Position numbers: made by a program. Shown in pieces: positions 60,601 to 63,600 of a stretch of DNA of 64,000 bases. The first letter of the stretch is position 1. Each line of letters begins with the position of its first letter. The stretch lies in the NCBI RefSeq assembly GCF_056746865.1, contig NZ_CM163382.1. One strand, 5' to 3'.

Positions 60601-63600
60601 GGATTGCTTCGCCGGGAGCGGCGCGCTGGGGCTGGAAGCGTTATCGCGCTACGCTGCGGGGGCCACATTGATTGAAATGGATCGCGCGGTTTCTCAGCAG
60701 TTAATTAAGAATCTGGCGACACTAAAAGCAGGCAATGCACGCGTGGTGAACAGCAACGCGATGTCATTCCTGGCGCAAAAAGGCACACCGCATAATATCG
60801 TGTTTGTCGATCCACCGTTCCGCCGTGGCTTGTTAGAAGAGACGATAAATTTACTGGAAGATAACGGCTGGCTGGCTGACGAAGCCCTGATTTATGTCGA
60901 AAGCGAAGTCGAAAACGGTCTGCCCACTGTTCCGGCAAACTGGTCATTACATCGGGAAAAAGTGGCGGGTCAGGTGGCTTATCGGCTGTATCAACGCGAA
61001 GCACAAGGAGAAAGTGATGTTGATTAATATTGGACGTTTGTTAATGCTCTGCGTTTGGGGATTTTTAATCCTCAACCTGGTGCATCCCTTCCCGCGTCCG
61101 CTGAATATTTTCGTTAACGTGGCGCTGATTTTTACCGTGCTGATGCATGGTATGCAACTGGCGCTATTGAAATCCACTTTACCGAAAGATGGCCCGCAGA
61201 TGACCACCGCCGAAAAGGTGCGGATTTTCCTTTTCGGCGTGTTTGAACTGCTGGTCTGGCAGAAGAAATTTAAAGTTAAAAAATAACCTTATTGTTCGCC
61301 AACAAAGCTGACAAAGCGCGTTCCTTTATAGCTCAGCGTACCTTTATCGCCCATTGTCAGGGCGTGGTACTGCTGGGCGTCGAGGCGAAACGTCTGCTCC
61401 ATTCCTCCGCTTTGCGGTTTGAAGCTTGCCTCATAGCGCATACTGGTGCCTGCCGGAGTCACTTCCTGCTGGCGCGAACGGCGATCGTTAATCGGTTTTT
61501 CCCGCTTGTTGCTCACCACCACCAGCTTTTGCTGGAGCGGTGCCATATCATTATCAGCTTTTTCCCGTCGTTGTTGCATAAAACGAAACGATGCGGCGAC
61601 GATGATTAAGCCAATGATAACAATAAAGAAAAGAGGTGGTTTGCTCATCTTTATCCCTCATCGGAAAATGCGGAATTAAGCATACCCTGCCAGTTATGGT
61701 GTTGTCATCCGTCCACCCTCGCCACTAAACTGGAAGCAAGACCGTAGGCATTCCGCTTACGAAAAAATAACGAATTCAAGGAACTAAGATGCTTTGGTCG
61801 TTTATCGCTGTCTGTCTTTCCGCATGGCTATCTGTGGATGCATCGTATCGTGGGCCAACCTGGCAACGCTGGGTGTTTAAACCGTTAACCCTTCTTCTCC
61901 TGCTGTTACTGGCCTGGCAAGCGCCAATGTTCGACGCCATTAGCTATCTGGTGCTGGCGGGGCTGTGCGCCTCACTGCTGGGCGATGCGCTAACCCTGTT
62001 GCCACGTCAACGTCTGATGTACGCCATCGGCGCGTTTTTCCTCTCGCACCTGCTGTACACCATCTATTTCGCCAGTCAGATGACGCTCTCTTTCTTCTGG
62101 CCTCTGCCACTGGTGTTGCTGGTTCTGGGCGCGCTGTTACTGGCGATTATCTGGACGCGTCTGGAAGAGTATCGTTGGCCTATCTGCACGTTTATCGGCA
62201 TGACGCTGGTGATGGTGTGGCTGGCAGGTGAACTGTGGTTCTTCCGTCCGACCGCTCCGGCGCTCTCTGCGTTTGTCGGCGCTTCGTTGCTGTTTATCAG
62301 TAACTTTGTCTGGCTGGGTAGTCACTATCGCCGACGCTTCCGTGCGGACAACGCTATTGCTGCGGCCTGCTACTTTGCCAGTCATTTCCTCATCGTTCGC
62401 TCGCTGTATCTCTGATAAAACTTGACTCTGGAGTCGACTCCAGAGTGTATCCTTCGGTTAATGAGAAAAAACTTAACCGGAGGATGCCATGTCGACTCCT
62501 GACAATCACGGCAAGAAAGCCCCTCACTTTGCTGCGTTCAAACCGCTAACCACGGCACAGAACGCCAACGACTGTTGCTGCGACGGCGCATGTTCCAGCA
62601 CGCCAACGCTCTCTGAAAACGTCTCCGGCACCCGCTATAGCTGGAAAGTCAGCGGCATGGACTGCGCCGCCTGTGCGCGCAAGGTAGAAAATGCCGTGCG
62701 CCAGCTTGCAGGCGTGAATCAGGTGCAGGTGTTGTTCGCCACCGAAAAACTGGTGGTCGATGCCGACAATGACATCCGTGCCCAGGTTGAATCTGCGGTG
62801 CAAAAAGCGGGCTATTCCCTGCGCGATGAACAGGCCGCCGACGAACCGCAAGCATCACGCCTGAAAGAGAATTTGCCGCTGATTACGCTTATCGTGATGA
62901 TGGCGGTAAGTTGGGGACTGGAGCAGTTTAATCATCCGTTCGGGCAACTGGCGTTTATCGCGACCACGCTGGTTGGACTGTACCCGATTGCTCGTCAGGC
63001 ATTACGGCTGATCAAATCCGGCAGCTACTTCGCTATTGAAACCTTAATGAGCGTAGCCGCTATTGGTGCGCTGTTTATTGGCGCAACGGCTGAAGCTGCG
63101 ATGGTGTTGCTGCTGTTTTTGATTGGTGAACGACTGGAAGGCTGGGCCGCCAGCCGCGCGCGTCAGGGCGTTAGCGCGTTAATGGCACTGAAACCAGAAA
63201 CCGCCACGCGCCTGCGTAACGGTGAGCGTGAAGAGGTGGCGATTAACAGCCTGCGCCCTGGCGATGTGATTGAAGTTGCCGCAGGCGGGCGTTTGCCTGC
63301 CGACGGTAAACTGCTCTCACCGTTTGCCAGTTTTGATGAAAGCGCCCTGACCGGCGAATCCATTCCGGTGGAGCGCGCGACGGGTGATAAAGTTCCTGCA
63401 GGAGCCACCAGCGTAGACCGTCTGGTAACGCTGGAAGTGCTGTCAGAACCGGGTGCCAGCGCCATTGACCGGATTCTGAAACTGATCGAAGAAGCCGAAG
63501 AGCGTCGCGCACCCATTGAGCGGTTTATCGACCGTTTCAGCCGTATCTACACGCCCGCGATTATGGCCGTCGCCCTGCTGGTAACGCTGGTGCCGCCGCT

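What the first reader, a model, noticed from the sequence alone, without database searches (positions are those of the whole stretch)
62422..62453. Perfect 20-bp palindrome in the zntA promoter (MerR-type operator)
CTCTGGAGTCGACTCCAGAG sits between the -35 TTGACT and the -10 region with a long spacer, the hallmark of MerR-family (ZntR) regulated promoters that are activated by DNA distortion.
Basis: partly seen in the sequence, partly recalled or inferred. Interest (0 to 1): 0.2.

Follow-up and report, generated by a model that had tools for sequence, protein, structure and literature searches.

The report
Known ZntR operator in zntA promoter
The palindrome is the long-characterised binding site of the zinc sensor ZntR inside the promoter of the E. 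coli zinc-export pump gene zntA, so the finding is correct but ordinary.

Summary
The window ends in E. coli rsmD-yhhL-yhhM-yhhN-zntA. TTGACT (62422-62427) and TATCCT (62448-62453) are separated by 20 bp. A perfect palindrome, 22 bp rather than 20 (ACTCTGGAGTCGACTCCAGAGT, 62425-62446), fills the spacer and overlaps the last 3 bases of the -35. This 22-mer is letter for letter the published ZntR site "within a 20 bp promoter spacer" (PMC1526738). The intergenic region is identical to K-12. The 32-bp promoter is present once, unchanged, in 5413 of 5426 complete E. coli genomes. In 79 of 79 testable ZntA-orthologue loci from other Enterobacterales, the -35, both outer half-sites and the 20-bp spacing are kept. 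Only the central 3-4 bp, the outermost base and the -10 vary. Mechanism, from the literature: a ZntR dimer binds the dyad, and Zn(II)-ZntR distorts the over-long spacer so that sigma-70 RNA polymerase can use it. Novelty: already known.

One side observation may be new. A second inverted repeat pairs the -10/discriminator (62447-62461) with the zntA Shine-Dalgarno (62473-62487). The left arm lies upstream of the inferred start site, so it could hide the ribosome site only in read-through RNA from yhhN, which ends 6 bp before the -35. This is suggestive and untested.

The parts
61789..62415 (+). yhhN (lysoplasmalogenase/YhhN family), the co-oriented upstream gene; stop codon TGA at 62413-62415, 6 bp before the -35
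   Evidence: ORF list; RefSeq annotation of matching E. coli records; co-oriented and adjacent in 73 of 79 orthologous loci
62422..62427 (+). -35 hexamer TTGACT of PzntA
   Evidence: Sequence; invariant in 79/79 orthologous loci; named as the PzntA -35 in PMC3431237
62425..62446 (.). ZntR operator: perfect 22-bp palindrome ACTCTGGAGTCGACTCCAGAGT (11+11, no gap)
   Evidence: identical to the published ZntR site (PMC1526738); the outer half-sites are near-invariant and the central 3-4 bp vary across 79 loci
62428..62447 (+). 20-bp spacer between -35 and -10 (optimum is 17 bp)
   Evidence: Counted; with a 20-bp spacer, the A at -10 position 2 and the T at position 6 are kept in 79/79 loci; 20 bp is stated in PMC3431237 and PMC1526738
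62448..62453 (+). -10 hexamer TATCCT (4/6 to TATAAT)
   Evidence: positions 1, 2 and 6 are conserved and positions 3-5 vary (TATGCT, TAACAT, TAGACT, TACCCT, TAAGAT, TAGAGT and others)
62460..62460 (+). Inferred transcription start (7th base after the -10). NOT verified here.
   Evidence: Inference from standard sigma-70 geometry; no TSS table naming zntA could be retrieved
62447..62487 (+). Second inverted repeat: GTATCCTTCGGTTAA (62447-62461, includes the -10) pairs with TTAACCGGAGGATGC (62473-62487, includes the Shine-Dalgarno GGAGG at 62479-62483); 15-bp stem, 11-nt loop
   Evidence: -20.9 kcal/mol; conservation and partial covariation; in-silico masking of the SD only in read-through RNA
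62489..64000 (+). zntA, the first 503 codons (cut by the window end): Zn(II)/Cd(II)/Pb(II) P-type ATPase
   Evidence: NF033775 positions 1-503 of 732, E = 2.7e-301; annotation
62491..62502 (+). Direct repeat of the operator's centre and right half at zntA codons 1-5 (GTCGACTCCTGA versus GTCGACTCCAGA)
   Evidence: I3; at least 10/13 identity in 47 of 80 sequences and 13/13 in 8, against 2 of 1600 at random coding positions

Best explanation
62422-62453 is the zntA promoter-operator of E. coli. A ZntR homodimer (MerR family) binds the two halves of the 22-bp dyad that fills the abnormally long 20-bp spacer. With a 20-bp spacer, the -35 and -10 hexamers are too far apart and out of phase for sigma-70 RNA polymerase, so basal activity is very low, and apo-ZntR holds the promoter slightly repressed. 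When Zn(II) (also Cd(II) or Pb(II)) binds ZntR, the protein kinks and under-winds the centre of the operator. This brings the hexamers into register and switches on the zinc-efflux ATPase gene. Shown here: the anatomy, the identity to the characterised K-12 site, the identity of the downstream gene, and very strong purifying selection with a conservation pattern typical of a dimer site (outer half-sites fixed, centre free, spacing fixed). Taken from the literature and not tested here: ZntR binding, zinc dependence and DNA distortion.
For: Anatomy. Downstream gene is zntA. The intergenic region is 100% identical to K-12 MG1655. The published ZntR site is the same 22-mer in a 20-bp spacer (PMC1526738). 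The -35 TTGACT, the 20-bp spacer and the ZntR footprint are described in PMC3431237. PzntA is described as the only known ZntR operator, with dyad-symmetric recognition (PMC4507017). Operator transplantation experiments are in PMC9189660. Salmonella ZntR binds its zntA operator-promoter (PMC5709419). The distortion mechanism for the family is reviewed in PMC9909328. Within the species, the 76-bp intergenic region is at least 99% identical in 5369 of 5425 genomes, whereas a 401-bp stretch including the flanking coding DNA is only 95-99% identical in 5253. The 32-bp promoter is unchanged and single-copy in 5413 of 5426 genomes and never on plasmids. Between genera, in 79/79 loci chosen only by ZntA protein similarity, TTGACTCTGGAGT is exact, CTCCA and G62445 of the right arm are invariant, the central positions 62435-62437 vary (77-92% retained), and conservation drops to 6-65% immediately upstream of 62421. 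The same layout is seen in E. coli PcopA (19-bp spacer, ACCTTCC-N7-GGAAGGT) and PsoxS (19-bp spacer, 18-bp perfect palindrome).
Against: Nothing substantive. zntR is not in the window: tblastn found nothing better than E = 1.5, and in K-12 it lies 167 kb away, so the presence of the regulator in this genome is assumed, not shown. One paper gives the spacer as 19 bp (PMC9189660), whereas the sequence and two other papers give 20. A 22-bp perfect palindrome is only about a 1.5% event per 64 kb, so the palindrome alone would not prove function.
Confidence: 0.96

Rival explanations
1. The palindrome works as an RNA hairpin, either as an intrinsic terminator or as a stabiliser at the 3' end of the yhhN transcript (or of an antisense transcript), rather than as a protein-binding site.
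For: As RNA it would form a 9-bp stem with a 4-nt loop. The terminator scan flags it on the minus strand because CAAGTTTTAT follows it there. It lies 9 bp after the yhhN stop codon.
Against: On the + strand, which is the strand yhhN is on, no T-run follows the hairpin (GTGTATCCTTCGG). No minus-strand gene reads into it, because zntA is on the + strand. An RNA hairpin would tolerate compensatory arm changes, yet the arms are invariant in sequence across 79 loci while the centre varies, which is the signature of a protein site. Binding and function as a ZntR operator are documented in the literature.
Confidence: 0.03
2. It is a chance palindrome (it contains a SalI site, GTCGAC) with no function.
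For: About one perfect 22-bp palindrome is expected by chance per 5-Mb genome.
Against: It sits exactly inside a 20-bp-spaced promoter in front of zntA. It is invariant in 5413 of 5426 E. coli genomes and conserved in 79/79 orthologous loci from other genera, while the adjacent bases are free to vary. It is identical to the experimentally defined site.
Confidence: 0.01
3. The site is an operator for a different dimeric regulator (another MerR paralogue such as CueR, or a non-MerR protein), and ZntR is not the main ligand in this strain.
For: The regulator is not encoded in the window, so its identity is not shown here. MerR-family sites share their architecture.
Against: The half-site sequence (ACTCTGGAGT) differs from the CueR (ACCTTCC) and SoxR (CCTCAAGTT) half-sites read. 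The sequence is identical to K-12, where ZntR dependence was shown.
Confidence: 0.02

Closest known systems
PzntA / ZntR operator of E. coli K-12 (Brocklehurst et al. 1999; Outten et al. 1999, as cited in PMC3431237 and PMC2611976)
   Same: Identical sequence from the yhhN stop codon to zntA codon 4; same -35, 20-bp spacer, 22-bp dyad and -10; same flanking genes.
   Different: Nothing in the promoter. The surrounding coding DNA is 97.5% identical to K-12 and closest to strains such as E. coli 042.
Pmer (merT promoter) / MerR of Tn501 and Tn21, the archetype
   Same: -35 TTGACT (stated to be identical in PMC3431237); a dyad inside an over-long spacer; repression by the apo form and activation by DNA distortion (PMC9909328).
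   Different: 19-bp spacer and a 7-4-7 dyad TCCGTAC-N4-GTACGGA (PMC1526738) against a 20-bp spacer and an 11+11 contiguous dyad. MerR is divergently autoregulated from the same region. zntR is unlinked and, by prediction, not autoregulated: no candidate ZntR site precedes it (PMC1526738).
PcopA / CueR and PsoxS / SoxR of E. coli
   Same: The dyad starts inside the 3' end of the -35, and its centre is displaced about 2 bp towards the -35. CueR and ZntR are treated as mechanistic twins (PMC4507017).
   Different: 19-bp spacers. Half-sites are ACCTTCC (CueR, interrupted dyad) and CCTCAAGTT (SoxR, 18-bp perfect). Neither shows the -10/Shine-Dalgarno masking computed for zntA.
IS10 / Tn10 'fold-back inhibition' of transposase translation in read-through transcripts (Davis, Simons and Kleckner 1985; recalled from memory, not retrieved). 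This is relevant only to the side observation.
   Same: Sequence upstream of the gene's own start site is complementary to its ribosome-binding site, so only RNA initiated further upstream can form the inhibitory hairpin.
   Different: Here it would protect a chromosomal metal-efflux gene from an abutting upstream gene, with the -10 hexamer itself as the anti-SD. There is no experimental evidence for zntA.

Membership tests
MerR-family (ZntR) regulated promoter-operator | Sigma-70-type -35 and -10 hexamers separated by an over-long 19-20 bp spacer | tested here: met
   TTGACT, then 20 bp, then TATCCT. The spacing is kept in 79/79 orthologous loci. The site is invisible to a 16-18 bp scan.
MerR-family (ZntR) regulated promoter-operator | Dyad-symmetric operator occupying the spacer | tested here: met
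   A 22-bp perfect palindrome at 62425-62446.
MerR-family (ZntR) regulated promoter-operator | Sequence match to the characterised ZntR site | tested here: met
   22/22 identity to the consensus ACTCTGGAGTCGACTCCAGAGT in PMC1526738; identical to the K-12 intergenic region.
MerR-family (ZntR) regulated promoter-operator | Drives a metal-resistance or efflux gene | tested here: met
   ZntA P-type ATPase starts 36 bp after the -10.
MerR-family (ZntR) regulated promoter-operator | Cognate MerR-family regulator present in the genome | not testable with these tools
   No ZntR-like ORF in the 64-kb window (tblastn best E = 1.5). In K-12 zntR is 167 kb away. The rest of this genome is not available.
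MerR-family (ZntR) regulated promoter-operator | Regulator binds the site, with metal-dependent activation and loss of control when the spacer is shortened | not testable with these tools
   Experimental evidence from the literature only: PMC3431237 (footprint), PMC9189660 (zinc response and operator transplantation), PMC5709419 (Salmonella ZntR binding), PMC9909328 (spacer shortening in the family).
MerR-family (ZntR) regulated promoter-operator | Evolutionary footprint of a dimer site: half-sites and spacing constrained, centre relaxed | tested here: met
   positions 62421-62434 are 97-100% retained; 62438-62442 and 62445 are 100% retained; the centre 62435-62437 is 77-92% retained; upstream of 62421 only 6-65% is retained.
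Intrinsic (Rho-independent) terminator | G+C-rich hairpin followed by a U-run on the transcribed strand of an upstream gene | tested here: not met
   No T-run follows the hairpin on the + strand. The minus-strand hit has no gene reading into it.
Fur box (considered for the second inverted repeat) | Close match to the 19-bp consensus GATAATGATAATCATTATC | tested here: not met
   The window matches 11/19 and most loci 10-11/19, within the tail of the background distribution. Only two loci reach 14-15/19.
Known structured RNA family (Rfam) | Match at or above the gathering score | tested here: not met
   The only hit is a spurious miRNA model, 19.7 bits against a gathering score of 90, E = 0.35.

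The most novel reading that the evidence does not exclude
The zntA control region may carry a second, RNA-level layer that has not been described. The -10/discriminator (62447-62461) is complementary to the zntA Shine-Dalgarno region (62473-62487), and the operator is complementary to zntA codons 1-4. Because both left-hand partners lie upstream of the ZntR-dependent start site, only read-through transcripts from the abutting yhhN gene could form these helices. Such transcripts would be translationally silent, which would keep ZntA synthesis strictly dependent on ZntR. This is a chromosomal analogue of IS10 fold-back inhibition.
Probability: 0.3. Interest if true: 0.45.

Novelty: already known. 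Interest (0 to 1): 0.12.

Why it matters
The ZntR operator matters as the switch that sets the free-zinc ceiling in E. coli and as the sensing element of many zinc, cadmium and lead biosensors, but all of this is established. What this check adds is modest. First, it gives a clean phylogenetic footprint: the functional unit is the -35 plus a 9-4-9 dyad at a fixed 20-bp spacing, and the perfect 22-bp symmetry is not required. Second, it gives a testable lead: the promoter's own -10 region may double as an anti-Shine-Dalgarno sequence that silences read-through transcripts from yhhN. If that is true, it would explain how a tightly metal-gated promoter can sit 6 bp behind another gene with no terminator, and it would matter to people who reuse PzntA fragments in reporters.

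Tried and rejected
1. The generic sigma-70 scan did not report PzntA, because it only accepts 16-18 bp spacers. This is uninformative rather than negative.

2. I searched for an experimentally mapped zntA start site without success. The primary papers (Brocklehurst 1999, Outten 1999, Brown 2003) are not held. Four genome-wide TSS or transcript-boundary papers had no retrievable entry for zntA, and one was not held. Text searches for the promoter or UTR sequence found only PMC1526738. The TSS at 62460 is therefore an inference.

3. ZntR is not encoded in the window.

4. Terminator reading of the palindrome: rejected, because there is no U-run on the relevant strand and the arms are conserved in sequence rather than only in pairing.

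5. Fur-box reading of the second inverted repeat. This was prompted by a Y. pestis paper that lists yhhN-zntA among the operons carrying a Fur-like box. The match is only 10-11/19, within the upper tail of the background, and Escherichia has lost the Fur-like hexamers while keeping the pairing. It is not supported for this window, but not excluded in other genera.

6. RNAalifold returned no consensus structure on the 53-sequence alignment. The pair counts for my hand-drawn helix are positive, but they rest on related sequences and on a structure derived from them.

7. Rfam has no relevant family.

8. PcopA and PsoxS were tested for the same -10/SD masking. There was no specific effect, so it is not a general property of MerR-type promoters.

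Full report
**1. What is in the sequence**

The last 4 kb of the window carry ftsY (minus strand), rsmD, yhhL, yhhM (minus strand), yhhN and the first 503 codons of zntA. This is shown by the ORF list, by megablast to 5425 of 5426 complete E. coli genomes with RefSeq annotation [quoted passage not shown], and by NCBIfam NF033775 (ZntA), E = 2.7e-301, profile positions 1-503 of 732.

yhhN stops at 62413-62415. zntA starts at ATG 62489. The intergenic region is 73 bp long and reads TTGACT (62422-62427), then 20 bp, then TATCCT (62448-62453).

**2. The palindrome**

The repeat finder reports arms 62425-62435 and 62436-62446, 11 nt each, 100% complementary, with no gap. The perfect palindrome is therefore 22 bp, ACTCTGGAGTCGACTCCAGAGT. 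It is not 20 bp, and it overlaps the last three bases of the -35.

- It occurs once in the window, even when 3 mismatches are allowed.
- It is the longest perfect palindrome in the 64 kb.
- Five of 300 Markov shuffles reached 22 bp or more, which agrees with the analytic expectation of about 0.015 per window. About one would therefore occur by chance in a whole genome.

Length alone is only suggestive. Context and conservation carry the argument.

**3. Identity with the known site**

- The yhhN-zntA intergenic sequence is identical to E. coli K-12 MG1655, although the surrounding 3.5 kb is only 97.5% identical.
[quoted passage not shown] This is a 22/22 match.
- PMC3431237 describes the PzntA -35 as TTGACT, identical to PmerT of Tn501. 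It describes the spacer as 20 bp, where other family members have 19. It notes that its own PbrR footprint is consistent with published DNase I protection results for ZntR, MerR and CueR.
- PMC9189660 measured repression at low zinc and about 10-fold activation at high zinc. It showed that the ZntR site confers regulation when transplanted into another promoter's spacer, and acts as a pure repressor site when placed downstream. That paper gives the spacer as 19 bp. The sequence and the other two papers give 20.
- Salmonella ZntR binds its own zntA operator-promoter (PMC5709419).
- The distortion mechanism for the family is reviewed in PMC9909328.

**4. Conservation**

*Within E. coli.* The 76-bp intergenic stretch is at least 99% identical in 5369 of 5425 genomes. 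A 401-bp stretch that includes coding flanks is 95-99% identical in 5253. The 32-bp promoter is unchanged in 5413 of 5426 genomes. It is single-copy and never on plasmids.

*Between genera.* I fetched 80 loci from different species, chosen only by similarity to the ZntA protein (62-98% identity): Escherichia, Citrobacter, Salmonella, Klebsiella, Kluyvera, Buttiauxella, Pantoea, Erwinia, Serratia, Xenorhabdus, Mangrovibacter and others. One locus is cut too short to test. In all of the other 79, the best match to the 22-mer lies 62-281 bp before the start of the ZntA protein match (about 62-80 bp in most) and begins with an exact TTGACTCTGGAGT.

Retention of the window's base, position by position:

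| Positions | Retention |
|---|---|
| 62414-62420 (upstream) | 6-65% |
| 62421-62434 | 97-100% |
| 62435-62437 (centre) | 89%, 77%, 92% |
| 62438-62442 and 62445 | 100% |
| 62443-62444 | 94-97% |
| 62446 | 85% |
| -10 positions 1, 2, 6 | 97-100% |
| -10 positions 3-5 | 70-75% |

With a 20-bp spacer, the A at -10 position 2 and the T at position 6 are present in 79/79 loci.

This is the footprint expected of a dimeric protein that reads two outer half-sites at a fixed phase relative to both hexamers and does not read the centre, which is where MerR-type proteins kink the DNA. The conserved unit is therefore roughly a 9-4-9 dyad. The perfect 22-bp symmetry is a feature of Escherichia, Citrobacter and Klebsiella and is not a requirement.

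**5. Comparison with other MerR-type promoters, read directly from K-12**

- PcopA: TTGACC, 19 bp, TAACCT, with ACCTTCC-N7-GGAAGGT.
- PsoxS: TTTACC, 19 bp, TATACT, with the 18-bp perfect palindrome CCTCAAGTTAACTTGAGG.

In all three promoters the dyad begins inside the 3' end of the -35 and is centred about 2 bp nearer the -35 than the middle of the spacer. zntR itself is not in the window. In K-12 it lies 167 kb away.

**6. Rivals**

A terminator reading fails. No U-run follows the hairpin on the + strand. The minus-strand "terminator-like" hit has no gene reading into it. The arms are conserved in sequence, not merely in pairing. Chance is excluded by conservation. A different regulator is unlikely, because the half-sites differ from those of CueR and SoxR and the sequence equals the K-12 site.

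**7. Verdict on the finding**

Novelty is none: this is the textbook ZntR operator.

**8. Side observation (partly followed up)**

*The hairpin.* Immediately downstream lies a second inverted repeat. GTATCCTTCGGTTAA (62447-62461, containing the -10) is complementary to TTAACCGGAGGATGC (62473-62487, containing the Shine-Dalgarno GGAGG). The stem is 15 bp with two G-U pairs, and the fold of 62446-62494 has a free energy of -20.9 kcal/mol. The RNA fold of 62405-62500 gives -36.2 kcal/mol, z = -5.9.

*Why read-through matters.* If transcription starts at the usual distance from the -10 (about 62460; inferred, not verified), the left arm is not in the ZntR-dependent mRNA. It is in any transcript that reads through from yhhN. 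yhhN is co-oriented and adjacent in 73 of 79 loci. Its stop codon is only 5-8 bp before the -35 in most of them, which leaves no room for a terminator.

*In-silico accessibility of the SD-to-AUG segment.* Values are medians of the mean unpaired probability over 71 distinct loci.

| RNA modelled | Median unpaired probability |
|---|---|
| Inferred PzntA mRNA | 0.51 |
| Read-through RNA | 0.19 |
| Read-through RNA with the 16 nt before the start site shuffled | 0.39 |

For the window, the read-through value is 0.14 against 0.39 for shuffles, with 0 of 100 shuffles as low. PcopA, which has a divergent neighbour, and PsoxS show no specific effect. The two Xenorhabdus loci and the Serratia locus, where yhhN is absent or 117 bp away, also show none.

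*Covariation.* On an alignment of 53 distinct Enterobacteriaceae sequences, 85.9% of cells form pairs, against 29-53% when the partner column is slid. There are 30 double-change cells against 9.2 ± 2.3 in shuffles (0 of 500 shuffles as high). Examples are U-A 26 / G-C 13 at columns 15-36, and G-C 42 / A-U 7 at columns 20-31.

*Caveats.*
- RNAalifold gave no consensus structure.
- The sequences are related to one another.
- The helix was drawn from these same sequences.
- The clearest covarying pairs lie in the inner stem, close to the uncertain start site, so a 5'-terminal mRNA stem-loop would explain them equally well.
- The outer stem (-10 with SD) is weakened in genera where the -10 is TATGCT.
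- A Fur-like box was considered because of PMC2231364. The match is only 10-11/19, which is background level.
- Rfam has nothing relevant.

*A second complementarity.* zntA codons 1-5 repeat the centre and right half of the operator: 11/12 identity in the window, 13/13 (GTCGACTCCAGAG) in 8 loci, and at least 10/13 in 47 of 80 sequences, against 2 of 1600 at random coding positions. Because the operator is a palindrome, this segment can pair with it in read-through RNA, as seen in the centroid structure. The conserved N-terminal peptide MSTP(D/E) is a confounder.

*Overall.* Together these features suggest, but do not show, an IS10-like fold-back device that keeps read-through transcripts untranslated. 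I put this at about 0.3.

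Noticed in passing
window 62447-62487: A 15-bp inverted repeat pairs the -10/discriminator (GTATCCTTCGGTTAA) with the zntA Shine-Dalgarno region (TTAACCGGAGGATGC). 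As RNA it can form only in transcripts that start upstream of PzntA, such as read-through from yhhN, where it would hide the ribosome-binding site. It is conserved with some compensatory changes across Enterobacteriaceae. No equivalent effect was computed at copA or soxS.
   Followed up: partly
window 62491-62502 (and the same position in L029, L031, L042 and others): zntA codons 1-5 (GTCGACTCCTGA) are a direct repeat of the operator's centre and right half (GTCGACTCCAGA). The match is exact over 13 nt in 8 loci, including Kluyvera (L029). It could be an extra ZntR half-site, or a partner for the operator in read-through RNA. It is confounded by the conserved N-terminal peptide.
   Followed up: partly
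window 62413-62427; loci L006-L085: The yhhN stop codon lies only 5-8 bp before the zntA -35 in most Enterobacteriaceae, with no terminator between them. A Y. pestis microarray study treats yhhN-zntA as one unit that clusters with iron-starvation genes and lists a Fur-like box for it (PMC2231364).
   Followed up: partly
loci L015-L084, about 6-30 nt after the -10 (for example L026 GGGTAATGAGAAAATTATCATTACCC): Most genera other than Escherichia carry GGTAATGA-N8-TCATTACC around the inferred start site. It contains Fur-box-like hexamers (ATTATC, GGTAAT), but the overall match to the 19-bp Fur consensus is only 10-11/19. Escherichia has a 3-nt shorter, degenerate version (GGTTAA-N11-TTAACC) that keeps the pairing.
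   Followed up: partly
window 33113-33130: The second-longest perfect palindrome in the window is ATTGTCCGGCCGGACAAT (18 bp). It lies in an intergenic region between two minus-strand ORFs, next to ATGTTACGGGTAAC / CGGTAACAT motifs that resemble GntR operators (this resemblance is from memory). It may be a terminator or attenuator, or an operator; it was not examined.
   Followed up: no
window 62250-62650 compared with E. coli genomes: The window is not K-12. The yhhN and zntA coding DNA is 97.5% identical to MG1655 and 99.8% identical to strains such as E. coli 042, while the intergenic promoter is 100% identical to both.
   Followed up: yes
literature (PMC9189660 versus PMC3431237 and PMC1526738): The published spacer length for PzntA is inconsistent: 19 bp in one recent paper and 20 bp in the others. 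The sequence gives 20 bp between TTGACT and TATCCT.
   Followed up: yes
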